A stretch of 64,000 nucleotides of DNA from Candidatus Moranbacteria bacterium GW2011_GWC2_40_12. GTDB lineage: Bacteria; Patescibacteriota; Minisyncoccia; Moranbacterales; UBA11712. The notes below the pieces were generated by a model. That model worked only from the letters and a program-made list of their open reading frames with translations, did not search any database and was not told the origin of the DNA. Both the position numbers and the translations under genes were made by a program. The DNA is taken from positions 135,889 to 199,888 of the forward strand of contig LBYD01000002.1 in assembly GCA_000995965.1 (NCBI GenBank), in the 5' to 3' direction. This document shows positions 9,860 through 25,430 of the stretch, piece by piece. Position 1 is the first letter of the stretch. Each line of letters begins with the position of its first letter.

Positions 9860-10054
9860 AAAAAAAATCGGCACACATCTGAAATATGCCGACATTATTC
9901 ATTCTATTTTTGGTCATTAATTATTGTTTTTTTCTTAATTTTTCCATCCCTTCTTCCGCGATTTTGCGAAATTCGTCATAAAATAAATTTTCCATCATCT
10001 TTTCCAGAAGATCGAGCAGTTTTTTTCGGTTTTTGTAAACAAATGCCATATTAG

Positions 10055-10522
10055 TTATTCTCTCTTCCGTATATCTGCCAAAGCGTCCATGTCATGAAAA
10101 AATTTCTTATTCGGCGTGTCATAAACTTTTTTCCATTCAACGTCCTTGAGCTGATCAAAATCGTTAATGGTGATTATATCCACAACCTCTTTCGTTTTTT
10201 TCTTGTCATATCCCACTGAATCCAAAATGTCTTTGGCTATTTTAGCGCCGGCCAGCATATGCACCAGTTTCGCGTTGACGATTTTTTTTGGTCCAGTCAC
10301 ATAGGCAAAATGTTCCGGAAGAAGCAACGCATGACCAATGTCGTGCATCATTGCAACTGGAATGATCACGTCTTTGTCATGCTTTATATTTCCCTGGTAG
10401 CTTAATACTAATTTTACAGTTTCTTTCGCATGCACGTCATCACCCGGACGGCCTTTTTTCAAGATCGGCAAAGCCTTTTTCCAGATTTTTTCGTATTTCT
10501 CCGGAAGGTTCTCGATTTTCAT
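10055..10522 (-). CDS. HD-domain phosphohydrolase
   Basis: 155 aa with HAKETVKL and MMHDIGHALL, an H..HD metal-binding signature. Confidence 0.65.
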   Translation of the reverse strand: MKIENLPEKYEKIWKKALPILKKGRPGDDVHAKETVKLVLSYQGNIKHDKDVIIPVAMMHDIGHALLLPEHFAYVTGPKKIVNAKLVHMLAGAKIAKDILDSVGYDKKKTKEVVDIITINDFDQLKDVEWKKVYDTPNKKFFHDMDALADIRKRE

Positions 10523-10526
10523 AAAA

Positions 10527-12074
10527 TTACGCTTTCCTTAAAATTTTAACGATCCCCCTATTGGCATCAACCTCGACTAGATCGCCGTCTTTCAAAATTT
10601 TCGTGGCAATTTTTGTTCCGACGATGCAGGGTTTCTTGAGTTCCCGAGAAACAATCGCCGCGTGCGAGATAATTCCTCCTGTGTCCGTCACGATCGCTGC
10701 CGCTCTTTTGAGACCCATAATCAAATCCGGATTAGTTGCCGAGGAAACCAATATATCCCCGTCTTTTACTTTGGCTGCATCTTTAGCGACAAGAACTATT
10801 TTCACCATTCCTTTAGCTTTTCCTTTATACGCCATCATCCCTTTGAGTTCACCAGTTTTCTCCTGGTCGAACTCTTTGTCGCTTTCTATTTTCAGTTTAG
10901 TAATAATTTCTTTTGCCTCCTTGCCTTCAAAAACTTTTATTCCCCCATTTATTGCGATATAACAACAGCGCCTTGTCCTTTCTTTCGCAATCTTTCGGTA
11001 TTTTTTTGCTTTCCTGTTATTAATCGCATCCTTGATATCTTCGAGCACTAAATATTTAATCTCCTTGGATGTCATCACTAATCTTCTCGCGATCTCATTA
11101 ATTATTTTATCCATGGCGACATATGATTTCTGATAAATTCCTTTTCGGAAATCCTTGATGAACATCATTTCCGCTGAAACTTGAAACGCATACTTCAAAT
11201 TTTCTGGCAGTTTTATTTTTTTTTGAATCCTCTGTTTCTCTTTCCTAATATTTTCATAATGATTCAGTATTATATTTTTCTGCTTCTTGGCGTCCCCTGT
11301 TTTCAGATTTTCGGCAAGCGCCCCAAGAAGATATTCCGCAGTCATGGCCGGTCCGGCATAGGCATATGTCAGCCAACCAAAATCTTTGAGATGTTTTTGA
11401 AATAGCTTATCAACCGACGGATACTTTTCGCTAAAATTTTTGTAATTGTTCTTTTCAATGTCCTGAATGACATTTTTTGATTTTTTGTCGGCCATTATTT
11501 TCAGGAGTAAATCCAACCTGGCAATTTCTTCTTCCTGAACTTCACTTTTCTTTTCGCTGGAGCTAAGAACCGTATAGTAATCACTAAACTTTTTCTCCTG
11601 CCCAAGTTTTTCAAGATACTTTCTAAACTCTGCTATGAGATAATCGCTCAAATAGGCTTTCTCCATCCCATCCATTGACGAAGGGATCCAACCCCAAACT
11701 CTCAAGGTCCGCAGTTTCCCCATATAATCAAGATACAATTGTAATAATTGCTTATCGCTTAATTTTTTTACGTTGGCTATTCTGTCAATGCGTTTGCAGA
11801 ATTTCATCAGTTCATCGCTATACTGATAAATGTTCTTGATAGATTTTCGGAAGAATGCTTTATCATCGATTAACTTTTTCAAAAAACCTTCTCCGACAGC
11901 ATTTGCCGATTCGCGATCATAATACATATGAATTCGGTCCTTTTCAAAATAGACGACAGCTTTTTTCACCACTGCCCTGGAAATTTTTCCTATATCTTTG
12001 GTAATCGTGAGGTCAGAAATATACCATGGGTAGATATACATATTGTCCCGCTCAAAAAGAAGTTTGAGAGCCAT
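10527..12074 (-). CDS. PEP-utilizing mobile domain protein, paralog 6
   Basis: 515 aa with C-terminus GGIISHAAIVSRELKKPCIVGTKIATKILKDGDLVEVDANRGIVKILRKA. Confidence 0.75.
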   Translation of the reverse strand: MALKLLFERDNMYIYPWYISDLTITKDIGKISRAVVKKAVVYFEKDRIHMYYDRESANAVGEGFLKKLIDDKAFFRKSIKNIYQYSDELMKFCKRIDRIANVKKLSDKQLLQLYLDYMGKLRTLRVWGWIPSSMDGMEKAYLSDYLIAEFRKYLEKLGQEKKFSDYYTVLSSSEKKSEVQEEEIARLDLLLKIMADKKSKNVIQDIEKNNYKNFSEKYPSVDKLFQKHLKDFGWLTYAYAGPAMTAEYLLGALAENLKTGDAKKQKNIILNHYENIRKEKQRIQKKIKLPENLKYAFQVSAEMMFIKDFRKGIYQKSYVAMDKIINEIARRLVMTSKEIKYLVLEDIKDAINNRKAKKYRKIAKERTRRCCYIAINGGIKVFEGKEAKEIITKLKIESDKEFDQEKTGELKGMMAYKGKAKGMVKIVLVAKDAAKVKDGDILVSSATNPDLIMGLKRAAAIVTDTGGIISHAAIVSRELKKPCIVGTKIATKILKDGDLVEVDANRGIVKILRKA

Positions 12075-13522: not shown

Positions 13523-13594
13523 TTTTGTTGACAAAACCGCCCAAAAGCGGTATTTTTTAATCAGTATTTTACCTAAATTTAAGCCAAAAACCAT

Positions 13595-14248
13595 ATGGAC
13601 AACGTAAATCCGTTCGTCACCTTGGCGGCCACTAGCGGAGTGCCCCTTGACACCCTGGTTCTAGTGTTGATTCTTCCCATCATCGTCACAATGATCGCTT
13701 TCTTCCGCCAAGTGATCGGGATCAAAGCTTTCGGCATCTATACGCCGGCTATCATCACTTTTGCCTTGCTTGCCACCAGCCAGCTGAAATACGGAATCAC
13801 GATTTTCGCTACTGTCATTGTCGTTGGAACAATCACTCGTTATCTTCTCAAAAAGGCGAGGCTCCTTTATCTTCCTCGCGTAGCCATCATGATCACCGTG
13901 GTCGGATTTTCAATCCTGCTTCTTCTTTTTGTGGGAGGAGCCTGGAACCGGACCGGGCTTGCGGGCGTGTCCATCTTCCCGATTCTCATTATGATAACAC
14001 TGGTTGAAAAGTTCATCGCCGTTCAAATCGAAAAGGGAAACCGGGCCGCTGTCATCCTCTCGCTCGAGACGCTTTTCATTTCGGTTATCGGCTACTATAT
14101 CGCGAGCTGGCCGCAACTAATCAGAATGATTTTGCACTATCCGTGGATCAGCCTGCTTACCATTCCGATAAACATTTTTTTAGGAAAGTGGACCGGCCTT
14201 CGCCTATCAGAATATTTTCGTTTTAGGCAGATTATCAAACCTAAATGA
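13595..14248 (+). CDS. 7-transmembrane membrane protein (7TM partner of RimK-like ATP-grasp systems)
   Basis: 217 aa with seven hydrophobic segments; sits immediately upstream of, and translationally coupled to (ATGA overlap), the alpha-L-glutamate-ligase-like gene. Confidence 0.5.
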   Translation: MDNVNPFVTLAATSGVPLDTLVLVLILPIIVTMIAFFRQVIGIKAFGIYTPAIITFALLATSQLKYGITIFATVIVVGTITRYLLKKARLLYLPRVAIMITVVGFSILLLLFVGGAWNRTGLAGVSIFPILIMITLVEKFIAVQIEKGNRAAVILSLETLFISVIGYYIASWPQLIRMILHYPWISLLTIPINIFLGKWTGLRLSEYFRFRQIIKPK

Positions 14249-15651
14249 TTTCATATTTCAAGGCTCGACGAAATATATTGGGAATGAACGCCCGCAATCT
14301 TCGGTTTATCCGCCCGAACAATCTTCGGCGAGCCAAAAAAATCGCCGACGACAAGCTTTTGAGCAAAAAAATTCTTGAGAAGGCCGACCTTCCCGTTCCG
14401 AAACTAATCGCGAAAATAGGAAACTTCGAAGAACTTGAAAATTTCGAATGGGGAATTCTTCCGGAAAGCTTTGTCCTGAAGCCCAACCGCGGATTCGGCG
14501 GAGAAGGAATTTTGGTCGTTTACGGAAAGAAGAAACATCTCGAAAATACCTGGATCAAGGCCGACGGTTCAATCGTGACGGCGAATGACATAAAGACGCA
14601 CGTGAGAAATATCTTAGACGGGAGTTTTTCCCTGGCCGGCGTTCCCGACGTTGCTTTTTTTGAGGAAAGACTCAAACTTCTCAAGCTTTTCAAAACTTAT
14701 GCCTACAAAGGAATTCCGGATATCCGAATAATCGTATACAATAAGGTGCCCGTGATGGCGATGCTGCGCCTTCCGACGCGCGAATCAGACGGAAAAGCCA
14801 ATCTCCAGCAGGGAGCGATCGGCGTGGGAATTGATATGGCCACAGGCGTGACTACCACGTCTGTCCTCGGAAAAGGAAAAATGATTGACTATATACCGGG
14901 AACGCGTCTTCTTCTTTCCGGAATCAAAATTCCCTACTGGAAAGATATGCTCCGAATGGCTGTCCGGGCGCAGGAAATTTCCGGCCTGGGGTTTTTGGGC
15001 GCCGACGTTGCCATTGACCGGGACCGGGGACCGGTCTTTTTGGAGCTCAATGCCCGACCGGGGCTTTCCATCCAAATTGCGAACACCGACGGATTGCTGG
15101 GGCGCTTGCGCCGGGTCGAAGATCTCAAGATAAAAACTGTCGAAAAAGGCGTGGCAGTTGGGATGAATCTTTTCGGCGGTGAAATCGAAGATGAGATTGA
15201 AGGAATTTCAGGAAAGAAAATAATTGGAATAATCGAGAAAGTAAGGCTGATCGGAAAAAAGGAAAAAGAAGTCGAAGTCGAGGCGAAAATCGACACAGGC
15301 GCGCAATCATCATCACTGGATATCGACATTGCAACTCAACTGGGTTTTGGAGAAATCGCTGATAAATTTTCAAGCATTGATCTTTCCTCTTATGAAATAG
15401 CCCCTGAAAATGAGAGCCGCATCAAGAAAGATATCCTGGAAAAATACAAGGATTTTGTCCCGGGGCTTGAAGATGTCGCTGTTATTTTTTCCGCCAGCGG
15501 AAATTCGATCCGCCCGGTAGTAAAAATAGAATTTGAGATGGACAAAGAAAGAATTATCTCAAAGATGAATTTGGTGGATCGGAAAAATCTCAAATATCCG
15601 ATGATTATCGGAAAACGCGACCTGAAAAAATTTTTAATCGAAGTGAAATAA
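14245..15651 (+). CDS. alpha-L-glutamate ligase-like (RimK-related) ATP-grasp fused to DUF785 retropepsin-like aspartic protease
   Basis: N-terminus MNARNLRFIRPNN..ADDKLLSKKILEKADLPVP...FVLKPNRGFGGEGILVV...FLELNARPG is RimK-related. C-terminal EVEAKIDTGAQSSSLDIDIA carries the D-T-G-A aspartyl protease motif of the RimB/DUF785 family. Confidence 0.65.
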   Translation: MISYFKARRNILGMNARNLRFIRPNNLRRAKKIADDKLLSKKILEKADLPVPKLIAKIGNFEELENFEWGILPESFVLKPNRGFGGEGILVVYGKKKHLENTWIKADGSIVTANDIKTHVRNILDGSFSLAGVPDVAFFEERLKLLKLFKTYAYKGIPDIRIIVYNKVPVMAMLRLPTRESDGKANLQQGAIGVGIDMATGVTTTSVLGKGKMIDYIPGTRLLLSGIKIPYWKDMLRMAVRAQEISGLGFLGADVAIDRDRGPVFLELNARPGLSIQIANTDGLLGRLRRVEDLKIKTVEKGVAVGMNLFGGEIEDEIEGISGKKIIGIIEKVRLIGKKEKEVEVEAKIDTGAQSSSLDIDIATQLGFGEIADKFSSIDLSSYEIAPENESRIKKDILEKYKDFVPGLEDVAVIFSASGNSIRPVVKIEFEMDKERIISKMNLVDRKNLKYPMIIGKRDLKKFLIEVK

Positions 15652-16625
15652 TGAAAAAAGTTTTGATATTATTCAGCAAAAGCGATTGGAAGACCAGTAC
15701 TCCCCCCAAAGATAAAGCTTACCGTTATTCGTATGAATATTTTTACACGCTTTGCAGAAAAAACAACATTCAAGTGTACCGAGCTTCTTATGAATGGTAT
15801 GACTTCAAGAAAAAGATTTTCAAATATGCTTGGATTTTTGAAAGTGCCGGAAACAATTGGCAAAGAGTCCGGAACATCAAGCCGGACTTTATTTATGACA
15901 AGACAAAGGCACGTCCCGAAATATTTTATAAAAAGGATTTGATAGGTCTAGATTATCCTTTCATAAATCATCTTGAATTCACAAAGATTGTTGACAACAA
16001 GTATACCAACAGCCTTATGTTTTTTAGGTGGAGCAAAAAAGCTTGGCTGGCCCATAATCAAAAGGAGATGAAAAAAATTATTAGGAGCATAAAGACCAGC
16101 AAAATTGTGCTAAAGCCATTGCGCCAGAGCGGGGGTGAAGGTGTTCAAATATTAAATAAGGCGGATGCGTCGAAGTGCCCTAATTTCAATCAGACGCACC
16201 TGTTGCAGGAATTTATCGATTCCTCAGAAGGAGTTCCGGGAGTGGTAAAAGGCATTCATGATCTGAGGCTTATTATGGTTAACAATGAGCTCATATATTC
16301 GTTAATCCGGCAACCTGCCAAAGGCAGTTATCTCGCTAATCTGGCTCAAGGAGGAACAGTGACGTTCATACCATTAAATAAGGTTCCCAGATCTGTCTTT
16401 CCTATTATTAACCAAGCAAAAAAACTTTTTGAATCATTCCGACCTCGAATTTTTTCCATTGATGTTATGTTCGATAAGAAAAAAAAGCCTTGGGTCGTGG
16501 AATTAAATTCAATGCCAGGGCTATATTTTTCTCCAAAAGGAAACCGCTACATGGAAAAGATGTATGCAGCGTTATTAAAAGTTTTTCAGGCTCGCTTAAA
16601 AGATTTATCTGGGAAAAAAATATGA
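15651..16625 (+). CDS. ATP-grasp ligase, YheC/YheD-like (tandem copy A)
   Basis: KIVLKPLRQSGGEGV.., GIHDLRLIMVN.., RQPAKGSYLANLAQGGTV and ELNSMPGL. Confidence 0.6.
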   Translation: MKKVLILFSKSDWKTSTPPKDKAYRYSYEYFYTLCRKNNIQVYRASYEWYDFKKKIFKYAWIFESAGNNWQRVRNIKPDFIYDKTKARPEIFYKKDLIGLDYPFINHLEFTKIVDNKYTNSLMFFRWSKKAWLAHNQKEMKKIIRSIKTSKIVLKPLRQSGGEGVQILNKADASKCPNFNQTHLLQEFIDSSEGVPGVVKGIHDLRLIMVNNELIYSLIRQPAKGSYLANLAQGGTVTFIPLNKVPRSVFPIINQAKKLFESFRPRIFSIDVMFDKKKKPWVVELNSMPGLYFSPKGNRYMEKMYAALLKVFQARLKDLSGKKI

Positions 16626-17581
16626 AAAAAGTTCTCATTCTATATGGGAAAAAAGGCGTAAAGCGACCTCCCTTTGAAAATGATTCCTACCGGATTTCTT
16701 ATGAAATCCTTTACGCCCTTTGTGAGAAAAGAGGAATAAAAATGTTCCGTGCTCCTTATCAAGAATATGACCACAAAAAAAAATATTTCAAGCGGGCTTG
16801 GTTTTTTGACGCGAAACATAAACGCTGGAGCATAACAAAAAATGTCATACCCCATCTTATTTTCGACAAAACTGCGGCAAACTCTCAAGCCGACTGCGAA
16901 AAAGAATCGATCGGGAAAGATTATTTATTTTTCAATGCGCTTGAATTTTCCCAGCTGGTAAGAAATAAACTCGCGATTAGCCTGTTATTTAGCAAATGGA
17001 GCAAAAAAAGCTGGCTCATCGAAAACAAACGCGACTTAAAAAAAATATTACTCAAAATTACCACCGGTAAACTGGTCATCAAGCCGCTAAGGGGCGGCGG
17101 GGGCAAAAATGTCCAGGTACTCGAAAAAAAGGACGCCCTCAAAAACGCTCGCCTAAAAGGTACCTATTTGATTCAGGATTATATTGACTCTTCAGCCGGC
17201 ATTTCCGGCATTAGCAAATCCATGCACGATTTACGGTTAGTTATGATTAACGATAAGATTATCTATTCTTTCGTCCGAGAGCCAAAAGCAGGATGTTTTC
17301 TCGCAAATTGTTCGCAAGGAGGAACTTTGAAAATTGTCCCTTTGAAAGATATTCCGAGGTCTGTTTACCCGATCATTAGCCATGCAACAAAAATGTTCAA
17401 TACTTTTTCTCCCCGATTTTATTCAATTGATCTAATGTTTGACAAAACAAAAAGGCCATGGGTAGTCGAGCTCAATGCCATGCCCGGGCTTAACATATGC
17501 GCTAAGGAAGAGAAGCCATATATTTTACGGTTGTATAAGGAACTAGCCAAGGTTTTTAAGGCTAAAGCAGAATTATGCTAA
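16622..17581 (+). CDS. ATP-grasp ligase, YheC/YheD-like (tandem copy B)
   Basis: Paralog of the preceding gene (KLVIKPLRGGGGKNV, HDLRLVMIN, REPKAGCFLANCSQGGT, ELNAMPGL). Start set at ATG 16622 (MKKVLILYGKKG), which is coupled to the upstream stop; the track ORF begins further upstream at 16490. Confidence 0.6.
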   Translation: MKKVLILYGKKGVKRPPFENDSYRISYEILYALCEKRGIKMFRAPYQEYDHKKKYFKRAWFFDAKHKRWSITKNVIPHLIFDKTAANSQADCEKESIGKDYLFFNALEFSQLVRNKLAISLLFSKWSKKSWLIENKRDLKKILLKITTGKLVIKPLRGGGGKNVQVLEKKDALKNARLKGTYLIQDYIDSSAGISGISKSMHDLRLVMINDKIIYSFVREPKAGCFLANCSQGGTLKIVPLKDIPRSVYPIISHATKMFNTFSPRFYSIDLMFDKTKRPWVVELNAMPGLNICAKEEKPYILRLYKELAKVFKAKAELC

Positions 17582-20136
17582 AAAAAAGACCAAAAATTAT
17601 CAAACGCTGGTTCCTTGAAGGACCAAATAGATACGGAGACCATCCCTCCTTCAGAATCGAGGTACCGGCGCGAAAGGTATCACGGAACTTTGTTCTGATG
17701 AAATCAAAAAAATTGTCGCTCGACGCGAAAGATATGGTTTTCTCAACGAAATCCGATATTTCTTCCTGGATGTTTTCAGTAAAAACTCTCACGCGTCTCG
17801 CGGGCATTGCACTCGAATATCATGAACACTCCGCCATTCAAACAGGAAATGTTTTTGTGGTTTTTAGGGCAGATTCGGCGGAAATAGGAAACACAATCGC
17901 TTGCGAAGCCGCAGCATGGATCAATTCCGGTTTCCAAAAAAACGTTTCTCCATTCGTGACAAGATTGAAAATTGCCGCAAAAAAATATAGCACGGGACCA
18001 ATCACAGGAAGATACCTGCTCCAAGCGAAAAGAAGAGGCATCCCCTCTATCATACTTGCCAAAGAACCAAATTTACTTCAATTTGGATATGGAAGGCGGC
18101 TCAAGAAAGCATTGTCAGCTTCCACCAGCAACACCTCGAGAATCGGATCAAAAATCACCTCGAATAAAAACACGCTCAATGTTTTGCTAAATAAAATTGA
18201 TATTCCGGTTTCATTATCTGAGAAAATTTCCAATCTTTCCGAATTATATTCACTACTCAAAAAATTTAATCTTCCAGTTGTAATAAAACCGGCTGACTCT
18301 ACCGAAGGAAAAGGTGTTTCACTGAACATCCGGGATATTGGAGCTGCAAAAAAAGCATACCGCCGCGCAAGAAAGTTCAGCCGAAATGTCATAATGGAAA
18401 ATCAAATCGAAGGCCGATATTACAGGATAACGTTTGTCGGCGGCAAGATGATAGCATGTGCTAAGGCTAGTCCAGCCTGCGTGATCGGCAATGGAAGAAA
18501 AAAGCTTTCTCATTTAATCAGGGAAGAAAACGCAAAGCCATATCGCCAAACAAACAACAAAGACGCCGCTTTTTACAAAATTGAACTGACGCATAAACTT
18601 AAAACCATTCTTTCTTTCCAGGGAGTTGACTTGAATTCAATTATCCCGAAAATGCGAAAGATATTTCTTTCCTACTCGGGCGTTGACGGCGGAGAATGGA
18701 TAGAAGACAACGCTTCAGTTCATCCTGAAAATATTGATCTGATCAAACGCGCGCTGTTATTTGCCGAACTAGACATTGCCGGAGTGGATATTATCTCGCC
18801 GGATATTTCCAAGCCGCTGGCGTCCAACGGAGGAAAAATAATTGAGATCAATGCTGGCCCCGACACAAACATCCACGCCAACGTTAACCGCGGCAAAAAA
18901 ATATTCGTTGAAAAAGCAATCTTAGATTACCTGTATCCTTATCCCGAAAAAGGACGTATTCCTATTGTGAGCGTCACCGGAACAAACGGAAAAACGACCA
19001 CTTCTAAGCTCATTGCCCATCTCATTAATAATCCCTCCCGGTGGACTGTGGGCCTTGCCACTTCGGATAACAAATATATTAACGGCGAGCTTGTGGCGAA
19101 AGGTGACAAATCAGGCTTTCTCAGCGCCCGCTCACTTCTTATTAATCCTGAAATTGACGCGGCTGTCCTTGAAACTTGCCATATCTTGGGCATAGACATG
19201 CGGGGTTTGGGATATGACTGGAGTGATGCAAGTGTTATAACAAATGTAACTGACGACCATATTGGAACTTTCTGCACTCGAACTGCCGGAGATTTGTTTA
19301 GGATAAAGTCGGTCGTGGCAAAACGAACAAAAAAGAAAGGGTATCTTATTCTTAACGCCGACGACAAAAATGCGCCTCGAATGGCAAGACACACAAAAGC
19401 TACGATCGCTTATTTTAGCTTGGATTCCCATAATCATCAAATAAAATCACATTCCGCCAAGGGGCTACCCGTCTATTACCTGCGGAATGAAAAACTTTGG
19501 GAAGAGCGCGAGGGAAAGAAGACCTTATTGGCTGAGGTAAGTTGTATTCCTATTGCTTTTTCTGGAAAAGCCGAGTTTAATATCCAAAATTGTCTTGGAG
19601 CTCTAGCGGCCGTCAGATTGGTTTTTGGATCTCGTTTTCCTATCGAGAAAATTCGAAACAAATTATATTCTTTTGGCCGACATCCTCAATCCAATCCGGG
19701 ACGCTTCAATCTAATAAGAAAAAAAAATTATCACGTAGTTGTTGACTATGCTCATAATCCCGACGGTTATAAAAAGACCATAGAACTGGCAAGCAAAATC
19801 CCCCATAAAAGATTTGTCGGAATAATTAAGTCGGCCGGCGACCGTCCCGAAGGTTTTATTCACGAACTGGGAAAAATTTCCGGAAACAGCTTCGACTATA
19901 TTTTCATTAAAGAACCATCACCTGAAAAAATTAGGAACAGAGAAAAAGGGGTAGTCTCAAATCTTTTGCAAAAAGGCGTTCTTTCTACCGGATTTCCAAA
20001 AAAATTGACACGGATTATCCATGACGAAAAAACCGCTGTCAACAAAGCTCTGCAGCAATCCCGAGGCGGCGATCTTTTGGTTGTATTTGCACATGATATT
20101 GATAATGTAATTGAACAAATAAACAAATATCCCTAG
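17575..20136 (+). CDS. cphA: cyanophycin synthetase-like (ATP-grasp + Mur-ligase domains)
   Basis: 853 aa. N-terminus ..LEGPNRYGDHPSFRIEV. ATP-grasp: LPVVIKPADSTEGKGVSLN...RITFVGGKMIACAKASPACVIGNGRKKLSHLI. Mur-ligase: YPYPEKGRIPIVSVTGTNGKTTT...DYAHNP. Confidence 0.65.
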   Translation: MLKKRPKIIKRWFLEGPNRYGDHPSFRIEVPARKVSRNFVLMKSKKLSLDAKDMVFSTKSDISSWMFSVKTLTRLAGIALEYHEHSAIQTGNVFVVFRADSAEIGNTIACEAAAWINSGFQKNVSPFVTRLKIAAKKYSTGPITGRYLLQAKRRGIPSIILAKEPNLLQFGYGRRLKKALSASTSNTSRIGSKITSNKNTLNVLLNKIDIPVSLSEKISNLSELYSLLKKFNLPVVIKPADSTEGKGVSLNIRDIGAAKKAYRRARKFSRNVIMENQIEGRYYRITFVGGKMIACAKASPACVIGNGRKKLSHLIREENAKPYRQTNNKDAAFYKIELTHKLKTILSFQGVDLNSIIPKMRKIFLSYSGVDGGEWIEDNASVHPENIDLIKRALLFAELDIAGVDIISPDISKPLASNGGKIIEINAGPDTNIHANVNRGKKIFVEKAILDYLYPYPEKGRIPIVSVTGTNGKTTTSKLIAHLINNPSRWTVGLATSDNKYINGELVAKGDKSGFLSARSLLINPEIDAAVLETCHILGIDMRGLGYDWSDASVITNVTDDHIGTFCTRTAGDLFRIKSVVAKRTKKKGYLILNADDKNAPRMARHTKATIAYFSLDSHNHQIKSHSAKGLPVYYLRNEKLWEEREGKKTLLAEVSCIPIAFSGKAEFNIQNCLGALAAVRLVFGSRFPIEKIRNKLYSFGRHPQSNPGRFNLIRKKNYHVVVDYAHNPDGYKKTIELASKIPHKRFVGIIKSAGDRPEGFIHELGKISGNSFDYIFIKEPSPEKIRNREKGVVSNLLQKGVLSTGFPKKLTRIIHDEKTAVNKALQQSRGGDLLVVFAHDIDNVIEQINKYP

Positions 20137-20140
20137 TGTT

Positions 20141-21634
20141 ATGGAAAAAAAGGCAAAGCCGAGTGGTACTTTCATTCGCGATATTGAAAACCTCAAAACG
20201 CTATTTTCGAGAAACAAAATAAAGATTTTTGGAATCGGGGCTTACCCTTCAACGCGAAGCGAGATCCGCCCCTTGATAGATGATTCCGAAATCATCTGCG
20301 CGAATCAGACCGGCGAATTCGCTTCGGTAAGCCAAAAAATAAAAGTGTCCTGCTTTCGGATAAAAAACAGGCTATCCAGTCTATATCCCGTGCAAAATCC
20401 AGAAGAAATCCTTTCAAAAAAAAGCGTAATCGCCCATATCAGGAAAAATTCAGCGGGCAAAAGAATCGGGATATACATATACAAACCGTCTTTAAAAATA
20501 GAAAAGATTTGTCGGGCAAATGGCTGGATTTTGATCGCAAACCGAATTTCCGTTTTTGACAAACTGGCTGGTAAAGACGAGGCTTGCCGCATTTTCCAAA
20601 AAATAGGAAAAAATCGAGATTTTCAAACAGTACCCCTAAACAGTCTTGAGAAAAAATTACCCGGTTTATTTTCAAGATTTGGAGACAAGATTGTTTTGCA
20701 ATTCCCGCGAGAGGGCGGAGGACGAGGCACTTTCTTTTTCCGCCGCGAAGATTCGAAAAATATAAGTTCGGAAATAGCAAAAAAAAGGAAAGGTTCGGAG
20801 ATAAAAAATTTTTCAAATAGAGTTTTGGTCAACGCTTATATTAAGGGGCCTTCTTTGAGCATCAGCGGCTGCATAACAAAAAGCAACGGCATTCTTTGCG
20901 ACAGCCTTCGCTATCAGCTGATCGACATCGCCGAGGCGAAAAAGATCAACTCCGCCGGAGTATTTTGCGGAAACGACTGGACGCTTGCGAAAAATATTCC
21001 CGCTTTCCTCGACAAACAAGCAAAAAAAATCGCCGTCCTAGTCGGCAATGTCCTAAAATCTGAAGGAGCACTCGGCATGTTTGGAATAGATTTTATCCGA
21101 TGCCGAGAAAGCGATACTCTGGTTCCTATTGAAATAAATCCTCGCCTGCTCGGCACGACCCCTGTTTCAGTTTATGTCCATTTACAAAAAGAACAAATCC
21201 CTCTTGAGGCTTTCCATCTGCTGGAATTCTTGAACATACCCTACAGAAAATTAAAAACTTTACCCAAGGAAAGTTTTTTATCGGCTCATGGGTGCCATTT
21301 GATACTATATAATCAGACTAGCGGCCGCGTTCGCGTCGGCAACGAGTTAAAGGGCGGCGTCTACGCGTTAACGAGGGCTTCGCGGCCCGCGCTCAAATAT
21401 TTGCGCCCTGGTTTTGAGCTTAGCGATATCAAGAATATGAATGAGTTTATTCTTACGGATGGAATGCCTCTTAAGAAGCTGGTCTACCAAAAAAATAAAA
21501 AACTTTTGAGGATTATTTCCAAAAAATCTCTAGTTAAAAAAAGCGCCGCCGAATTAAACTCCTGGGGGAAAAAAGTAGTCAGCCAAGTGCGGAGCAACCT
21601 TAAGATTCATCCGCTAAAAAAAATCAATAGGTAA
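20141..21634 (+). CDS. ATP-grasp domain protein (fifth ATP-grasp of the cluster)
   Basis: 497 aa with GMFGIDFI...PIEINPRLLGTTP, a typical ATP-grasp C-terminal Mg/ATP region. Confidence 0.5.
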   Translation: MEKKAKPSGTFIRDIENLKTLFSRNKIKIFGIGAYPSTRSEIRPLIDDSEIICANQTGEFASVSQKIKVSCFRIKNRLSSLYPVQNPEEILSKKSVIAHIRKNSAGKRIGIYIYKPSLKIEKICRANGWILIANRISVFDKLAGKDEACRIFQKIGKNRDFQTVPLNSLEKKLPGLFSRFGDKIVLQFPREGGGRGTFFFRREDSKNISSEIAKKRKGSEIKNFSNRVLVNAYIKGPSLSISGCITKSNGILCDSLRYQLIDIAEAKKINSAGVFCGNDWTLAKNIPAFLDKQAKKIAVLVGNVLKSEGALGMFGIDFIRCRESDTLVPIEINPRLLGTTPVSVYVHLQKEQIPLEAFHLLEFLNIPYRKLKTLPKESFLSAHGCHLILYNQTSGRVRVGNELKGGVYALTRASRPALKYLRPGFELSDIKNMNEFILTDGMPLKKLVYQKNKKLLRIISKKSLVKKSAAELNSWGKKVVSQVRSNLKIHPLKKINR

Positions 21635-21647
21635 CTCTATTTTTCTT

Positions 21648-23036
21648 ATGGAAAAGCCAAGTATTTTCAGTCAATCATATCTGGAGAGACGTGATCCGAA
21701 AGCTTACGATAAACAATGGCGCCATTTAATTAACCTTTGTCGTTCCTATAACGATCCTTTTACTTATTTAGGGGGCGAAGAAAAATACCGCAAACAGCAG
21801 AAAGATGATTTTTTATCTGGTAAAATTGAAAATCCGGTTCTTGATTATCCGGATATCAATATCGAAGATATAGACAGACGAGAAAAAAAGCTCCTTGAAA
21901 TAAAAGAATACATACTGAAAAAGGAGAAGAGGGAATTCGTTCGCCAGGCATATAAATGGAGAATAAATGAATTAGTGGCCGGCTTTAGAATGCTAAAGGC
22001 CACCGCCTCGGGAAACATGAAAAGATTCCAGCGCTATACCGAATATATCTACGGCAATCCTTCCCGAGATATTTTTTCCTATTCGGTAGAAAAGATTAGA
22101 GCCAACCTGGAAAATTATCTTGACTCGGATAATCTGGACCTGCAGAGCGCTGCCCAAAATCTTTTTGACGCGCTTCCGAAAGATCTTCCCGAGGCTAAAG
22201 TGATTCATTTGCCTGGCCAAGACGTGATTTCTAACGCGAAAAAAATTATCGATGAAGAATTCAGCAATCTATTCGAAATGCCTTCGGAAAAAAAAGAGCT
22301 CGACGCTGAAGATATTTGTCTCATCGCTTCTCAAATTATTAAAGATAAAAAGGCTTTCGACTGGAAAGCGATACTAATCGACGGAGGCAGCGGAAGCAGT
22401 CTGTCAGTGGATCAAGAAAGAAAACAATTTAAAATTCCAAAAGCAAAGACTGTTTCGCCTTCCGAATTTACAGGCACCGCTCGTCATGAAGCGGGCCGTC
22501 ATTTTTTCAGAAGAATTGAGGGTGATCGGAGCCGCTTGCGGCTGTTGGGAATAGGTCTCGACAGATATGACCGAGGGGAAGAAGGAGTCGCCACTGCCAC
22601 AGAACAAGCGGCAGAAGAACGAATGGATGATTTTGCTGGTCTCGCGAGCCATCTCGCGATCAGTTTGGCCATCGGACTTGACGGCAAACCACGAAACTTT
22701 AGGGATACTTATGAATGGATGAAAAAATACTTTACATTTCTCAAAGTTAAAAACGGAAAGAGTTTTTCCTCCGCTGAAACCGAAGCGCGATCGAATGCCT
22801 GGGCAATTTGCATTCGAACCTTTCGCGGAACAAATTGTTCCACTCCCGGCGTTTGTTTCACGAAGGATATCGTGTACAGAGAAGGCAACATAGAAACATG
22901 GGGAATCCTTGAAGAAAATCCTGAAGAAGCTCATCGTTTTAGTGTGGGGAAATACGACCCAGCCAATATGCGGCATCTCTGGATTCTTGATCAAATGGCT
23001 ATAGAAGATCAGGATTTAGAATATTTAGAGAAATAG
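21648..23036 (+). CDS. DUF1704 / QEGLA-family (MATCAP-like) putative metallo-carboxypeptidase
   Basis: 462 aa with an HEAGRH (H-E-x3-H) motif and a GEEGVATATEQ segment resembling the EEGLA signature. Confidence 0.5.
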   Translation: MEKPSIFSQSYLERRDPKAYDKQWRHLINLCRSYNDPFTYLGGEEKYRKQQKDDFLSGKIENPVLDYPDINIEDIDRREKKLLEIKEYILKKEKREFVRQAYKWRINELVAGFRMLKATASGNMKRFQRYTEYIYGNPSRDIFSYSVEKIRANLENYLDSDNLDLQSAAQNLFDALPKDLPEAKVIHLPGQDVISNAKKIIDEEFSNLFEMPSEKKELDAEDICLIASQIIKDKKAFDWKAILIDGGSGSSLSVDQERKQFKIPKAKTVSPSEFTGTARHEAGRHFFRRIEGDRSRLRLLGIGLDRYDRGEEGVATATEQAAEERMDDFAGLASHLAISLAIGLDGKPRNFRDTYEWMKKYFTFLKVKNGKSFSSAETEARSNAWAICIRTFRGTNCSTPGVCFTKDIVYREGNIETWGILEENPEEAHRFSVGKYDPANMRHLWILDQMAIEDQDLEYLEK

Positions 23037-23150
23037 TGTATTATATTGACATAGGCTCAATTTTGATAGAAAATTGAGACTTACCGAATTCGTAATATAT
23101 CCCAAGCCATAGTAATATCTATTTTATCCTGTGGTACGGGATCAGCAAGA

Positions 23151-25385
23151 ATGAAAAACGAACTCGTGGATAACACGAAAAATGCTTTGAAAAAGCCAAA
23201 AAAGAAGCGGAAATGGCTTCGGCGGATTTTCAAAATTTTTGTTTGGTGCTTTGTCGCCGGGCTGCTTTTAGCTATAGGCGTTTTTGCCTATTATGCCAAA
23301 GATTTGCCTAGTCCCGGAAAACTCAACAAGAGGCAAGTCGTCGAATCTACCAAGATATACGACCGCACGGGAGAGCACCTTCTCTATGAAATCCACGGCG
23401 AGGAAAAACGCACCACTATCCCCCTAAAAGACATGGGCGAAGTCATCAAGGCCGCCACTCTTTCTGCCGAAGACCAGAGCTTTTATCAGCATCACGGAAT
23501 TTATTTCAAATCTATCGCGCGGGCCGCGATTTATGATCTTATCGGCCGCCAAGTCAGCCAGGGAGGATCGACCATCAGTCAGCAGCTAATCAAAAACACG
23601 GTACTTACAAACGAAAAAACTTTCACCCGCAAAGTAAAAGAAGTGATTCTTTCGGTCGAGCTCGAGCAAAGATTTTCCAAAGACGAAATTCTCGAGATGT
23701 ATCTCAACGAGATTCCTTATGGCTCCAATGCCTATGGGGTTCAGGCGGCTGCTCAGACTTTTTTCGGAAAAGACGCTAAGAGCCTTACTCTGGCTGAAGC
23801 AGCCCTTCTTGCTTCCCTTCCGAAAGCTCCAACCTATTACTCCCCTTATGGCTCAAACACAGATGACTTGAGAGGCCGGCAGGAGTACGTCTTGGACCAG
23901 ATGGCAAAACTTGGCTACATCACCAGAGAAGAGGCAGAAGGCGCCAAAGAAATTGATATAATTTCCGAAGTCAGACCCTTTCAGGAAAGCATCCAAGCGC
24001 CCCACTTTGTGATGTATGTGAAAGATCTTTTAGTGAACAAGTACGGCGAACAGCAAGTTGAAGAGGGCGGAATGAAAGTATTTACCACTCTTGATTGGGA
24101 CAAGCAGCAAATTGCAGACGAGGCGGTAAAAAAGGGAGTCGCGAATAACTCCAAGTATAAAGCCTCAAACGCGGCTCTCGTCGCTATTGATCCAAAGACG
24201 GGACAAATCCTGGCCATGGTCGGTTCCCGCGATTATTTTGACAAAACCATTGACGGAAACGTGAATGTTGCTATCCGCGACCGTCAACCTGGATCAAGTT
24301 TCAAGCCCTATGTTTACGCAACCGCTTTCAAAAAAGGCTACACCCCGAATACCATGCTTTTTGATGTTGAAACAAATTTTGGGACGAAGGAGAAGCCTTA
24401 TGCTCCTCAAAATTATTCGAATAATTTCAGCGGTCCGGTGAAAATGAAAGAGGCGCTTGCGAGATCCTTGAATATCCCGGCTGTGAAAACCCTTTACCTG
24501 GCCGGCGTGCAAAATTCGGTCAATACGGCCCAATCAATGGGAATCACTACTCTCAAGAACCCAAGCCGCTACGGTCTGGCTTTGGTTCTCGGCGGCGGGG
24601 AAGTCAAGCTCGTTGACCACGTGAACGCGTTCGGGACATTCGCGACAGGAGGAGTCAGACATGACAAGACAGCCATTCTCAAAATCACCTACTCTCAGGG
24701 AAACCTTCTGGACGAATATAAAAATTCAGCCGGGGAAAAAGTGCTGGATCAGGATATTTGCGCCAAAATTGATTCTATTCTTTCCGATAACAGCCTGCGC
24801 TCATCTGTTTTCGGCTCGAACAGCCCTCTCCGATTCGACAGCCGCCCAGTAGCCGTGAAAACCGGGACTACCAATGAATGGCGGGATGCCTGGACAGTTG
24901 GATATGCGCCAAATCTCGTAGCCGGCGTTTGGGCGGGAAACAACAACAACGCACCGATGGCACAAGGGTCCGATGGAGTGTATGTCGCCGCGCCAATTTG
25001 GCGGGAATTTATGGATAGGGCGTTTTCCAATATGGCCATTGAAAAATTTCCTGAAGTGAAAGACGAAAAAACCGGAAAAGCTATTCTCGACGGGACGGTG
25101 CAGGGAGAGGAGAAAGAGGTAACTGTTTGCAAAATCAGTGACGGAAAATATTGCCTTGCCAACGATAATTGTCCAGACAACGAAAAGAGGCGACACAAAA
25201 AATTCTTTTCGGCCCATTCCATCTTATATTGGATTGACAAAGACAACCCCCGCGGAGATGCCCCTAAACAGCCTCAAAAGGATCCTCAGTTTTCCGCTTG
25301 GGAAAAGGGAGTTCAGAAGTGGGCAGAGAAAAAAGAACTTGATGTTCAAGAAAATGTTGAGGAATGCAAGTCCAGTGATTTTTAA
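23151..25385 (+). CDS. class A penicillin-binding protein (PBP1A; transglycosylase + transpeptidase)
   Basis: EDQSFYQHHGI...GGSTISQQLIKN is a GT51 transglycosylase; SGSSFKPYVY is the transpeptidase SxxK motif; an N-terminal TM anchor is present. Confidence 0.9.
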   Translation: MKNELVDNTKNALKKPKKKRKWLRRIFKIFVWCFVAGLLLAIGVFAYYAKDLPSPGKLNKRQVVESTKIYDRTGEHLLYEIHGEEKRTTIPLKDMGEVIKAATLSAEDQSFYQHHGIYFKSIARAAIYDLIGRQVSQGGSTISQQLIKNTVLTNEKTFTRKVKEVILSVELEQRFSKDEILEMYLNEIPYGSNAYGVQAAAQTFFGKDAKSLTLAEAALLASLPKAPTYYSPYGSNTDDLRGRQEYVLDQMAKLGYITREEAEGAKEIDIISEVRPFQESIQAPHFVMYVKDLLVNKYGEQQVEEGGMKVFTTLDWDKQQIADEAVKKGVANNSKYKASNAALVAIDPKTGQILAMVGSRDYFDKTIDGNVNVAIRDRQPGSSFKPYVYATAFKKGYTPNTMLFDVETNFGTKEKPYAPQNYSNNFSGPVKMKEALARSLNIPAVKTLYLAGVQNSVNTAQSMGITTLKNPSRYGLALVLGGGEVKLVDHVNAFGTFATGGVRHDKTAILKITYSQGNLLDEYKNSAGEKVLDQDICAKIDSILSDNSLRSSVFGSNSPLRFDSRPVAVKTGTTNEWRDAWTVGYAPNLVAGVWAGNNNNAPMAQGSDGVYVAAPIWREFMDRAFSNMAIEKFPEVKDEKTGKAILDGTVQGEEKEVTVCKISDGKYCLANDNCPDNEKRRHKKFFSAHSILYWIDKDNPRGDAPKQPQKDPQFSAWEKGVQKWAEKKELDVQENVEECKSSDF

Positions 25386-25430
25386 AAAGGGCTATATCCT
25401 GAAATCCCTCCCGTATATCTGGGGGGATTT

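What the first reader, a model, noticed from the sequence alone, without database searches (positions are those of the whole stretch)
13595..23036. Seven-gene cluster with five ATP-grasp amide ligases, two peptidases and a 7TM protein: candidate undescribed peptide/poly-amino-acid tailing and trimming system
The genes are co-directional and tightly coupled, with overlapping stops and starts. Their order is: (1) a 7TM protein; (2) an alpha-L-glutamate-ligase-like (RimK-related) ATP-grasp fused to a DUF785 retropepsin-like protease; (3) and (4) duplicated YheC/YheD-like ATP-grasp genes; (5) a cyanophycin-synthetase-like gene (ATP-grasp plus Mur-ligase); (6) another ATP-grasp gene; and (7) a DUF1704/QEGLA (MATCAP-like) metallopeptidase. 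From comparative-genomics literature on amidoligases I recall the core trio 7TM + RimK-like ligase + DUF1704, but not this expansion with a CphA-like enzyme and YheCD-like ligases, and not in a Patescibacteria-like genome. By analogy to RimK adding poly-Glu to protein S6, to tubulin tyrosination/detyrosination (TTL and MATCAP) and to cyanophycin synthesis, I infer the cluster could build and trim an amino-acid polymer or protein C-terminal tail at the membrane.
Basis: partly seen in the sequence, partly recalled or inferred. Interest (0 to 1): 0.9.

Follow-up and report, generated by a model that had tools for sequence, protein, structure and literature searches.

The report
Membrane-anchored peptide add-and-trim gene cluster
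A tiny uncultured (Patescibacteria) bacterium carries a real seven-gene operon of five ATP-driven amide-bond-forming enzymes, two peptidases and a membrane protein; it is an enlarged, previously undescribed version of a widespread but mechanistically unsolved system that most likely builds and trims an amino-acid chain at the cell membrane without the ribosome.

Summary
Seven co-directional, mostly overlapping genes (13595-23036) encode a 7TM protein, an ATP-grasp ligase fused to a retropepsin, two RimK-like paralogs, a cyanophycin-synthetase-like enzyme, a further ATP-grasp protein and a MATCAP-type metallocarboxypeptidase.

The cluster is not unique. Its core is the 7TM protein plus the ligase-retropepsin fusion. 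This core sits in over 20 Patescibacteria species, typically between RuvC and a class-A PBP, and in one Pacearchaeota genome. It is related to the Pseudomonas rloABC operon. The ligases between the anchors vary by lineage.

Domain fusions elsewhere tie the parts together: ligase+MATCAP in 43 of the 150 best relatives, 7TM+ligase, and ligase+retropepsin+gene-6-like ATP-grasp.

The CphA-like enzyme keeps the ATP and catalytic residues of both ligase domains. It has replaced every residue that reads Asp and Arg in true cyanophycin synthetases, partly with charge reversal, and lacks the primer-making HxxEH motif. It forms a small clade found only in these islands.

Best reading: a membrane-docked, ribosome-independent system that extends and trims a peptide or poly-amino-acid. 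The product is unknown and probably goes to the cell envelope. This is a new variant of a known kind. The full seven-gene form is lineage-restricted.

The parts
13528..13556 (+). Promoter-like site (TTGACA-17-TATTTT) in the 128-nt gap between RuvC and g1
   Evidence: Consensus scan. This is a pattern match only, not proof of function.
13595..14248 (+). g1: 217-aa 7TM membrane protein. It corresponds to the C-terminal 7TM half of RloB and has no extracellular domain. Predicted N-out/C-in, with a conserved basic cytoplasmic tail WTGLRxSEYFRFR.
   Evidence: PF14402, 4e-29. RloB model positions 309-507 matched. Seven hydrophobic segments and a K/R-rich C-terminal tail. Conservation across 27 loci.
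14245..15651 (+). g2: 468-aa fusion. Residues 8-295 are an RloC/RimK-related ATP-grasp ligase (ATPgrasp_ST). Residues ~322-467 are a retropepsin-type aspartic protease with catalytic D350-T-G-A.
   Evidence: PF14397, 236.8 bits; TIGR02291, 298.8 bits; PF05618, 41.6 bits; RloA1-3 models. PDB matches to RloA-type proteases 9g58 and 2pma. DTGA and E-x-N are invariant in 27 loci.
15651..16625 (+). g3: 324-aa RimK-like ATP-grasp ligase
   Evidence: PF08443, 54.5 bits; weaker ATPgrasp_ST, GSH-S_ATP, YheCD and TTL hits. 49% identical to g4.
16622..17581 (+). g4: 319-aa RimK-like ATP-grasp ligase, tandem paralog of g3
   Evidence: PF08443, 52.0 bits. Start confirmed by public gene calls and by the paralog alignment.
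17575..20136 (+). g5: 853-aa CphA-architecture enzyme. It has a short divergent N domain (1-137, no HxxEH), an ATP-grasp G domain (~138-455) and a Mur-ligase M domain (~456-853). Catalytic residues are kept. The residues that read substrate in CphA1 are replaced.
   Evidence: TIGR02068, 688.5 bits against a cut-off of 850. 1e-120 to CphA1 structures 7wac and 7lg5 over residues 127-849. Residue map.
20141..21634 (+). g6: 497-aa three-domain ATP-grasp enzyme of a small family restricted to Patescibacteria and DPANN archaea; substrate unknown
   Evidence: PF02655, 1.3e-9. Only 48 clusters among 5.8 billion proteins. AF2 model with pLDDT 88. Nearest solved folds are biotin carboxylase, PurD, PurK and BacD at TM ~0.5 and ~13% identity.
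21648..23036 (+). g7: 462-aa MATCAP/TMCP-family (DUF1704) metallocarboxypeptidase. H280-E281-xxx-H285 and E311-E312-G313 are kept. I saw no N-terminal hydrophobic leader in the translation, so I take it to be cytoplasmic.
23151..25385 (+). Conserved downstream neighbour: class-A PBP (transglycosylase + transpeptidase). Whether it belongs to the system is uncertain.
   Evidence: Pfam Transgly and Transpeptidase domains. It lies directly downstream of the island in 17 of 28 distinct loci. No terminator-like site lies on the + strand between g7 and this gene, but a promoter-like site lies at 23046-23074.

Best explanation
The cluster is an operon for ribosome-independent, ATP-driven extension and trimming of an amino-acid chain at the inner face of the membrane.

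Shown here:
- The 7TM protein and an RloC/RimK-type ligase fused to a retropepsin are the invariant core.
- That core is linked, by gene order and by domain fusion in other organisms, to the MATCAP-type carboxypeptidase and to the g6-type ATP-grasp.
- All ligase and peptidase catalytic motifs are intact.

Inferred from the characterised relatives (RimK/RimB, RloABC, CphA1, MATCAP/TMCP):
- g2, g3 and g4 add alpha-linked residues, probably acidic ones, to a free C-terminus.
- g5 works like cyanophycin synthetase. One domain extends a backbone and the other adds a side branch. Its rewired, partly charge-reversed pocket means the building blocks are not Asp and Arg.
- g6 adds a further, unknown residue or makes a primer.
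- The retropepsin domain cuts inside acidic runs. This limits chain length and creates new primers.
- The MATCAP-like enzyme removes residues from the C-terminal end.
- The 7TM protein docks the machinery through its conserved cytoplasmic tail and probably hands the product to the cell surface.

I think a free or membrane-anchored, envelope-directed polyamide is the most likely product.
For: Operon structure and intact motifs.

Conservation:
- 22 of 45 species-level loci anchored on g6 have 7TM + fusion directly upstream. The usual order is RuvC-[island]-PBP1.

Domain fusions among the 150 best of 443 relatives of g2 (E<=1e-30):
- All 43 proteins of 740-840 aa are ligase+MATCAP. In all, 50 of the 150 carry a MATCAP-like domain, and HExxxH is kept in 44 of those 50.
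- Three are 7TM+ligase.
- One is ligase+retropepsin+ATP-grasp_3.

g5:
- Kept: K198, K238, R284, E-x-N, GTNGKT, the Mg-chelating Glu that aligns with TeCphA1 E558, the DH pair, and the Arg and His of the M-domain lid.
- Changed: D/E215->K/R, R323->A/S, NLSTGG->G[AV]DGG, T397->D, G456->D, R458->N.
- These changes are fixed across the 8-10 sequences of the Patescibacteria clade (51-77% identical to g5) and absent from about 30 canonical CphA1s.
- This clade occurs only inside the islands. Canonical CphA1 never does.

g7 is MATCAP-like by sequence, motif and fold.

Literature:
- RimB cleaves poly-Glu tails and stimulates RimK (PMC11957791).
- RloA cleaves poly-Glu. The defects of a triple rloA1-3 deletion are suppressed by deleting rloB or rloC (PMC12239564).
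- TMCP/MATCAP enzymes shorten poly-Glu chains (PMC10499314).

Envelope link:
- The membrane partner is invariant.
- The 7TM protein carries extracellular PKD domains in several loci.
- Glycosyltransferases and a GH130 enzyme are embedded in some islands.
- PBP1 or LytR genes are neighbours.
Against: - No product, substrate or activity is known for any protein of this cluster.
- Even for rloABC the product is unidentified.
- The 7TM protein has no demonstrated transport function, and I could not model it.
- The protease and carboxypeptidase here are cytoplasmic, unlike secreted RloA, so export is an inference.
- MATCAP homologs are common stand-alone genes in Patescibacteria. Their place in this operon is seen only in the window lineage and two to three diverged contigs.
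- The window's own island has no glycosyltransferase.
- The PBP1 adjacency could be plain synteny near the replication origin.
- The substrate inference for g5 rests on alignment to CphA1 structures, not on a complex model.
Confidence: 0.5

Rival explanations
1. Post-translational tailing of a specific protein. The ligases add a poly-Glu-like tail to the C-terminus of a target protein, such as ribosomal protein S6 (as RimK does), an envelope protein or the 7TM protein itself. The retropepsin and MATCAP-like enzymes reverse this. It would be a bacterial counterpart of the tubulin TTL/TTLL-MATCAP/CCP cycle.
For: The characterised relatives cited here for three of the families act on protein C-termini, although RimK also makes free poly-Glu: RimK/RimB on RpsF (PMC11957791) and MATCAP/TMCP on tubulin tails (PMC10499314). 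g3 and g4 give weak TTL-family hits. Ligase-MATCAP fusions fit an add/remove cycle on one substrate. Both peptidases are cytoplasmic.
Against: No candidate acceptor is encoded in the islands, and small ORFs there are not conserved. A CphA-type polymerase and up to five different ligases are more than single-residue tailing needs. The obligatory membrane partner, with extracellular domains in relatives, and the embedded glycosyltransferases point to the envelope. RimK itself also makes free poly-Glu. The S6 C-terminus of this organism was not examined.
Confidence: 0.25
2. Amide-linked decoration of a cell-wall glycopolymer, peptidoglycan precursor or lipid-linked intermediate. The ligases attach amino acids or short peptides to carboxyl groups of a sugar polymer or stem peptide at the membrane, and the peptidases edit them.
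For: Pfam names the g2 ligase family 'sugar-transfer associated ATP-grasp'. GT4, GT2 and GH130 genes and a stand-alone Mur ligase lie inside related islands. A class-A PBP follows the island in 17 of 28 loci. LytR_cpsA_psr is nearby in L077. Pseudomonas rlo mutants have morphology, osmotic and beta-lactam phenotypes (PMC12239564).
Against: The window's island contains no glycosyltransferase. Many islands consist only of 7TM + fusion + g6. A retropepsin endopeptidase specific for poly-Glu and a carboxypeptidase suggest a peptide chain of some length rather than single-residue decoration.
Confidence: 0.17
3. Ordinary cyanophycin (poly-Asp with Arg branches) nitrogen storage, with g5 as a true CphA1 and the other genes as unrelated neighbours or accessory enzymes.
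For: g5 has the N-G-M architecture of CphA1 and is ~35-38% identical to canonical CphA1s, with E 1e-120 to solved CphA1 structures. NCBI annotated a partial copy as cyanophycin synthetase.
Against: g5 is below the curated cut-off (688.5 against 850 bits). Every residue shown to bind the incoming Asp (R323, N394, S396, R458) and the Arg branch (D/E215) is replaced clade-wide. There is no HxxEH primer site. Bit scores drop sharply (901 to 514) between this clade and canonical enzymes. This clade is always embedded in the 7TM/ligase island. I did not scan the window for a cyanophycinase.
Confidence: 0.05
4. Chance juxtaposition of unrelated amide ligases and peptidases in a gene-dense small genome.
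For: Patescibacteria genomes are compact, and gene overlap is common. Island content varies between lineages.
Against: The same families recur together in over 20 species and across the bacteria/archaea divide. They are fused into single polypeptides elsewhere.
Confidence: 0.03

Closest known systems
rloABC operon of Pseudomonas aeruginosa (RloA retropepsin, RloB inactive-transglutaminase 7TM protein, RloC ATP-grasp); PMC12239564
   Same: The same three families are present: the 7TM_transglut membrane domain, an ATPgrasp_ST / TIGR02291-type ligase, and a PF05618 retropepsin with DTG. All are encoded in one operon.
   Different: g1 lacks the periplasmic inactive transglutaminase domain. The protease is not secreted; it is fused to the C-terminus of the cytoplasmic ligase. 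Four further ligase genes and a MATCAP-type peptidase are added. The host is Patescibacteria, whereas 96% of RloB hits were Proteobacteria according to that paper.
RimK-RimB and the RimBK hybrid (poly-alpha-L-glutamate synthesis and RpsF tailing/trimming); PMC11957791
   Same: A cytoplasmic ATP-grasp ligase is paired with, or fused to, a retropepsin that cuts the ligase's acidic product. The protease stimulates polymer synthesis.
   Different: In RimBK the protease is N-terminal to the ligase; in g2 the order is reversed. g2's ligase belongs to ATPgrasp_ST rather than RimK proper (TIGR00768, 43 bits against a cut-off of 143). The Rim system has no membrane partner.
Cyanophycin synthetase CphA1 (PDB 7lg5, 7wac); PMC9427784, PMC9262961
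   Same: Both have the N-G-M architecture. The ATP-binding and catalytic residues of both ligase domains are conserved. By analogy, g5 would extend a chain at its C-terminus and add a side branch.
   Different: The Asp- and Arg-reading residues are replaced, partly with charge reversal. The large loop is two residues shorter. The N domain is shorter and lacks HxxEH. g5 scores below the curated family cut-off. It is embedded in a multi-ligase operon.
MATCAP / TMCP1-2 tubulin carboxypeptidases (PF08014, PDB 7z5g); PMC10499314
   Different: Identity is 21%. g7 has an extra ~190-residue helical N-terminal region. The substrate is prokaryotic and unknown. In many relatives the domain is fused directly to the ligase.

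Membership tests
Rlo-type system (7TM_transglut + ATPgrasp_ST ligase + retropepsin) | Membrane protein with the PF14402 7TM domain | tested here: met
   g1: 102.2 bits against a cut-off of 25. Seven hydrophobic segments.
Rlo-type system (7TM_transglut + ATPgrasp_ST ligase + retropepsin) | Periplasmic inactive transglutaminase domain on the 7TM protein (RloB) | tested here: not met
   g1 is 217 aa and matches only positions 309-507 of the 508-position RloB model (79.9 bits against a cut-off of 900).
Rlo-type system (7TM_transglut + ATPgrasp_ST ligase + retropepsin) | ATP-grasp ligase of the alpha-L-glutamate-ligase-like family (TIGR02291 / PF14397) | tested here: met
   PF14397: 236.8 bits against a cut-off of 31.4. 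TIGR02291: 298.8 bits, just under its equivalog cut-off of 314.2.
Rlo-type system (7TM_transglut + ATPgrasp_ST ligase + retropepsin) | Retropepsin-like aspartic protease with a DTG active site | tested here: met
   PF05618: 41.6 bits against a cut-off of 27. D350-T-G-A is invariant in 27 loci.
Rlo-type system (7TM_transglut + ATPgrasp_ST ligase + retropepsin) | Protease secreted through an N-terminal signal peptide | tested here: not met
   The protease domain is residues ~322-467 of a fusion whose N-terminus is the cytoplasmic ligase.
Cyanophycin synthetase CphA1 | Score above the curated family cut-off (TIGR02068) | tested here: not met
   688.5 bits against a cut-off of 850.
Cyanophycin synthetase CphA1 | G (ATP-grasp) and M (Mur-ligase) domains with ATP and catalytic residues | tested here: met
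   K198, K238, R284, E-x-N, GTNGKT, the Glu that aligns with TeCphA1 E558, the DH pair, and the Arg and His of the M-domain lid are all kept.
Cyanophycin synthetase CphA1 | Residues that bind the incoming Asp (R323, N394, S396, R458) and the Arg branch (D/E215) | tested here: not met
   They are A298, deleted, V370, N432 and K193 in g5. The changes are fixed in the whole Patescibacteria clade and absent from canonical enzymes.
Cyanophycin synthetase CphA1 | N-domain Cx19HxxEH primer-generating site (present in ~80% of CphA1s, so not strictly defining) | tested here: not met
   No HxxEH in the first 200 residues of g5 or the seven aligned clade members, nor in the first 220 of two further members, L058 and L059. 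It is present in all 18 aligned canonical sequences.
Cyanophycin synthetase CphA1 | Produces poly-Asp with Arg branches | not testable with these tools
   Needs an enzyme assay.
MATCAP / TMCP (PF08014, DUF1704) | Pfam score above the gathering threshold | tested here: met
   68.5 bits against a cut-off of 27. The narrower TIGR02421 QEGLA equivalog is not met (47.5 against 338.65).
MATCAP / TMCP (PF08014, DUF1704) | HExxxH zinc motif and EEG third-ligand motif | tested here: met
   H280-E281-A-G-R-H285 aligns to RHEIGTH of human MATCAP. H280, E281, H285, E312 and G313 are invariant and E311 nearly invariant in 29 homologs. The motif definition comes from PMC10499314.
MATCAP / TMCP (PF08014, DUF1704) | MATCAP fold | tested here: met
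MATCAP / TMCP (PF08014, DUF1704) | Carboxypeptidase activity on acidic C-terminal tails | not testable with these tools
   Needs an enzyme assay.
RimK (S6 glutamate ligase) for g3/g4 | RimK family score (TIGR00768) and the RimK_N pre-ATP-grasp domain | tested here: not met
   53.5 and 49.6 bits against a cut-off of 143.4. No PF18030 hit at E<=0.01. Only the generic PF08443 ATP-grasp domain is met.
YheC/D ATP-grasp for g3/g4 | PF14398 as the best-fitting family | tested here: inconclusive
   32.0 and 31.5 bits against a cut-off of 26.8, but RimK, ATPgrasp_ST and (for g3 only) GSH-S_ATP score higher.

The most novel reading that the evidence does not exclude
The islands are a modular, ribosome-independent polyamide assembly line typical of ultra-small Patescibacteria and DPANN cells. 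An invariant membrane dock (the 7TM protein) and a ligase-protease starter unit are combined with interchangeable ligases of differing specificity. In this lineage, a new clade of cyanophycin-synthetase-like enzymes makes a branched poly-amino-acid that is not Asp/Arg. The product would be displayed on or in the cell envelope, where it could serve osmoprotection or attachment to host cells.
Probability: 0.27. Interest if true: 0.85.

Novelty: new variant of a known kind. Interest (0 to 1): 0.68.

Why it matters
- Patescibacteria have genomes of about 1 Mb and lack most biosynthesis, by general knowledge of the group rather than anything measured here. This lineage nevertheless spends 9.4 kb on six ATP-dependent amide-forming domains and two peptidases, and the core is kept in over 20 species. 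The product is therefore probably important for the cell envelope or for life on a host.
- The comparative picture may help the open question of what RloB and RloC make in Pseudomonas and Vibrio, where the operon affects osmotic tolerance, biofilm formation, cell shape and antibiotic susceptibility. The ligase-MATCAP, 7TM-ligase and ligase-protease fusions, and the compact cytoplasmic version here, suggest a minimal set of proteins to reconstitute.
- The CphA-like clade has a coherently rewired pocket. It is a concrete candidate for a new natural poly-amino-acid and for engineering cyanophycin-like materials.
- The ligase-MATCAP fusions show that the ATP-grasp ligase / MATCAP carboxypeptidase pairing known from the tubulin code also exists in prokaryotes.

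Tried and rejected
- Canonical cyanophycin synthesis: rejected on residue evidence.
- Anti-phage defence system: no PADLOC hit for any of the seven proteins.
- Peptide-precursor (RiPP-like) reading: small ORFs inside related islands are not conserved and look spurious. No conserved short gene accompanies the ligases.
- RNA elements: no tRNA and no Rfam hit in the whole window.
- Recent horizontal transfer of the island: GC content of 14-22 kb (0.40-0.44) is within the window's range. Not pursued further.
- g6 as a biotin-dependent carboxylase: the fold resembles biotin carboxylase at only TM ~0.5 and 13% identity. No biotin-carrier or carboxyltransferase domain was detected in the seven cluster proteins.
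- Dead ends:
  - The Iyer et al. 2009 amidoligase paper, which defined ATPgrasp_ST and 7TM_transglut, is not held. What it predicted is cited from memory and from Pfam names only.
  - The afdb50 fold library was unavailable.
  - The taxonomy look-up of the source name failed.
  - Literature searches for this cluster in Patescibacteria found nothing.

Full report
**1. The observation**

Seven ORFs lie head to tail on the + strand from 13595 to 23036.
- Four junctions overlap, by 4, 1, 4 and 7 nt. The last two are gaps of 4 and 13 nt.
- The mechanical ORF list starts gene 4 at a TTG (16490). The ATG at 16622 overlaps the stop of gene 3, is the start called in three public assemblies, and is where the alignment to its paralog begins.
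- A promoter-like site lies in the gap after RuvC (13528-13556). No + strand terminator-like site separates gene 7 from the PBP gene that follows. That gene has its own promoter-like site and a strong terminator at 25407-25426.
- The identical cluster is present in JGI, NCBI (GCA_003489455.1) and ENA assemblies. The exact gene-5 protein is indexed in 60 blocks of the collection.
- A 100%-identical partial copy is named 'Parcubacteria group bacterium GW2011_GWD1_38_16'. The locus lies next to dnaN and dnaA.

**2. Domain content**

- g1 is a 217-aa 7TM_transglut protein. It matches only the C-terminal 7TM half of the RloB model.
- g2 joins an ATPgrasp_ST / TIGR02291 ligase (residues 8-295) to a PF05618 / RloA-type retropepsin (~322-467, D350-T-G-A).
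- g3 and g4 are 49%-identical tandem paralogs. Their best match is the generic RimK ATP-grasp domain. The YheC/D and TTL matches are weaker.
- g5 matches cyanophycin synthetase over residues 72-851 but scores below the curated cut-off.
- g6 has only an ATP-grasp_3 hit.
- g7 is PF08014 MATCAP.
- All five ATP-grasp domains keep the E-x-N motif.
- None of the seven proteins matches a PADLOC defence model.

**3. The cluster is a variant of a conserved island**

- The g6 family is small: 48 clusters in 5.8 billion proteins, mostly Patescibacteria MAGs.
- A scan of species-representative genomes with a g6 profile returned 45 loci, from Patescibacteria and from DPANN archaea.
- I mapped the window's proteins onto all ORFs of these loci. 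In 22 species, g6 is preceded directly by a 7TM gene and a ligase-retropepsin fusion.
- The usual order is (YebC)-RuvC-[7TM]-[fusion]-(0-3 RimK-like ligases)-[g6]-(a small CphA-G-like ATP-grasp)-[class-A PBP]. The PBP follows the island in 17 of 28 distinct loci.
- One Pacearchaeota genome has 7TM + fusion + g6 (L028). An Aenigmatarchaeota locus has g6 next to a GNAT, a double retropepsin and two RimK genes.
- Island content varies between lineages:
  - only 7TM + fusion + g6 (L016, L023, L031, L034);
  - only 7TM + fusion + a CphA-like gene (L053, L059);
  - glycosyltransferases, a GH130 enzyme and a stand-alone Mur ligase in some islands (L004, L008, L009, L036, L040).
- In several loci the 7TM protein carries two extracellular PKD domains.
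- Across 27 loci, the DTGA of the protease, the E-x-N of the ligase and a basic cytoplasmic tail motif of the 7TM protein (WTGLRxSEYFRFR) are conserved.

**4. Fusions tie the parts together**

- An exhaustive HMMER search with g2 found 443 cluster representatives at E<=1e-30.
- Among the best 150, all 43 proteins of 740-840 aa are ATPgrasp_ST plus a C-terminal MATCAP domain. In all, 50 of the 150 carry a MATCAP-like domain, and HExxxH is kept in 44 of those 50. The DTG of the middle region is usually lost in these proteins.
- Three proteins fuse the 7TM domain to the ligase. One fuses ligase, retropepsin and a g6-like ATP-grasp_3. One fuses a YdjC domain.
- In locus L077 the genes are PKD-7TM / ligase-MATCAP / RimK-like, with overlapping stops and starts.
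- A contig about 47% identical in g7 has RimK-RimK-g6-MATCAP in the same order as the window.
- In contrast, MATCAP homologs are common stand-alone genes in Patescibacteria. None of the 45 g6-anchored loci contains one.
- The full seven-gene form is therefore restricted to this lineage.

**5. The CphA-like enzyme**

- g5 aligns to solved CphA1 structures at 1e-120 over residues 127-849.
- I used the residue roles established for TeCphA1 and SuCphA1 (PMC9427784; PMC9262961).
- Kept: the ATP and catalytic residues of both ligase domains (K198, K238, R284, E-x-N, GTNGKT, the Glu that aligns with TeCphA1 E558, the DH pair, and the Arg and His of the M-domain lid).
- Changed:
  - the acidic residue that holds the Arg branch (D/E215) is K/R;
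  - the Arg residues that hold the carboxylates of the incoming Asp are A/S (R323) and N (R458);
  - the NLSTGG loop is G[AV]DGG, two residues shorter, so N394 is lost;
  - two new Asp residues appear (T397D, G456D).
- These changes are fixed in all members of a small Patescibacteria clade (51-77% identical to g5). They are absent from about 30 canonical CphA1s.
- The clade lacks the HxxEH primer site.
- It is separated from canonical enzymes by a drop from 901 to 514 bits.
- It occurs only inside 7TM/fusion islands, whereas canonical CphA1 loci never do.
- Stand-alone G-domain-like ligases near other islands carry different large-loop motifs. This suggests diversified specificities.
- g5 therefore works like a CphA but is not a cyanophycin synthetase by the residues that define its substrates.

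**6. The other proteins**

- g7 keeps HExxxH and the EEG motif that define MATCAP/TMCP (PMC10499314).
- The g6 model (pLDDT 88) is a classical three-domain ATP-grasp. Its nearest solved folds are biotin carboxylase, PurD, PurK and BacD at TM ~0.5 and ~13% identity. It is a distinct family of unknown substrate.

**7. Mechanism**

Relevant literature:
- RimK makes poly-alpha-Glu and tails RpsF. RimB, a retropepsin, cuts these tails and stimulates synthesis. A RimB-RimK hybrid exists with the protease at the N-terminus (PMC11957791).
- RloA retropepsins cleave poly-Glu. The defects of a triple rloA1-3 deletion are suppressed by deleting rloB or rloC (PMC12239564). This implies that the ligase and the 7TM protein make something the protease must process.
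- TMCP/MATCAP enzymes remove C-terminal Tyr and Glu and shorten poly-Glu chains.

Put together with the fusions, the best-supported reading is a membrane-docked system in which several ligases extend a chain at its C-terminus. One of them, g5, would add backbone plus branch. An endopeptidase and a carboxypeptidase would set chain length and regenerate primers.

Several facts favour an envelope-directed product:
- the membrane partner is invariant;
- relatives of the 7TM protein carry extracellular domains;
- glycosyltransferases are embedded in some islands;
- PBP or LytR genes are neighbours;
- Pseudomonas rlo mutants have envelope-related phenotypes.

A protein C-terminal tail or decoration of a wall polymer cannot be excluded. 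No computation here identifies the product.

**8. Novelty and verdict**

- The core is a known kind: the Rlo/Rim-type ligase-protease system, and Pfam families defined from the 2009 amidoligase survey, which I could not read.
- As far as the held literature shows, the following are new:
  - the reversed ligase-retropepsin fusion;
  - the 7TM protein without a transglutaminase domain;
  - the g6 family as a regular partner;
  - the rewired CphA-like clade;
  - the ligase-MATCAP fusions;
  - the spread across Patescibacteria and DPANN.
- I rate this a new variant of a known kind, of fairly high interest.

Noticed in passing
window 128-12074 (- strand): Six tandem paralogous ORFs (351-515 aa). 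Each has only a C-terminal PEP-utilizers phosphohistidine swivel domain (E 1e-21 to 1e-26) after a ~270-435-aa N-terminal region with no Pfam hit. They are interleaved with small genes and an HD-domain protein. They are not conserved upstream of the island in other Patescibacteria loci.
   Followed up: partly
window 37750-56612 (- strand): Type IV secretion-like cluster: VirB2/TrbC-like pilin hits, an SLT lytic transglycosylase fused to a pilin-like region, and a VirB4/TraC-like ATPase (614 aa). Several large ORFs have no Pfam family (1020, 719, 485 and 339 aa).
   Followed up: partly
window 30610-35461 (+ strand): Surface-polysaccharide genes a few kb from the island: a Polysacc_synt / MurJ-like flippase and a Wzy_C O-antigen-ligase-like protein were scanned. 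Neighbouring ORFs were not scanned.
   Followed up: partly
window 25789-30514: Replication-origin neighbourhood next to the island: dnaN, dnaA, then rnpA, yidC and a KH/R3H (Jag-like) gene, according to the Pfam labels of the identical public contigs.
   Followed up: no
P0299 (= EKD49309.1, 800 aa); L077:8001-10400: The ATPgrasp_ST-MATCAP fusion protein of an 'uncultured bacterium' is annotated in GenBank as 'ketopantoate hydroxymethyltransferase', which looks like a misannotation. The same architecture sits between a PKD-7TM gene and a RimK-like gene in L077.
   Followed up: yes
L026:11916-13985 and L029:8221-10280: In Aenigmatarchaeota the g6 homolog is flanked by two conserved genes of ~340 aa. 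One starts 'M-K-(I/F)-x-x-I-D-F-R-P-G-F-x-V-Y-R-N-G-x-G-P-V-W-V-C-P-H-x-G-P'. Pfam found no family at all for the two L026 genes, and only a weak CbiA match, below its cut-off, for the L029 8221-9243 gene; the L029 9240-10280 gene was not scanned. In the non-CPR locus L007 the g6 homolog is followed by an FGase-family amidohydrolase.
   Followed up: partly
L042:893-3874; P0316 (926 aa); P0290 (688 aa): There are longer derivatives of the ligase-retropepsin fusion: one with a g6-like ATP-grasp_3 domain, one with a YdjC-like carbohydrate deacetylase domain, and a 993-aa ORF in L042 whose extra region was not analysed.
   Followed up: partly
window 56867-58555 (+ strand): A UbiA-family prenyltransferase domain (residues 310-520) is preceded by a ~300-residue N-terminal region with no family hit.
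   Followed up: no
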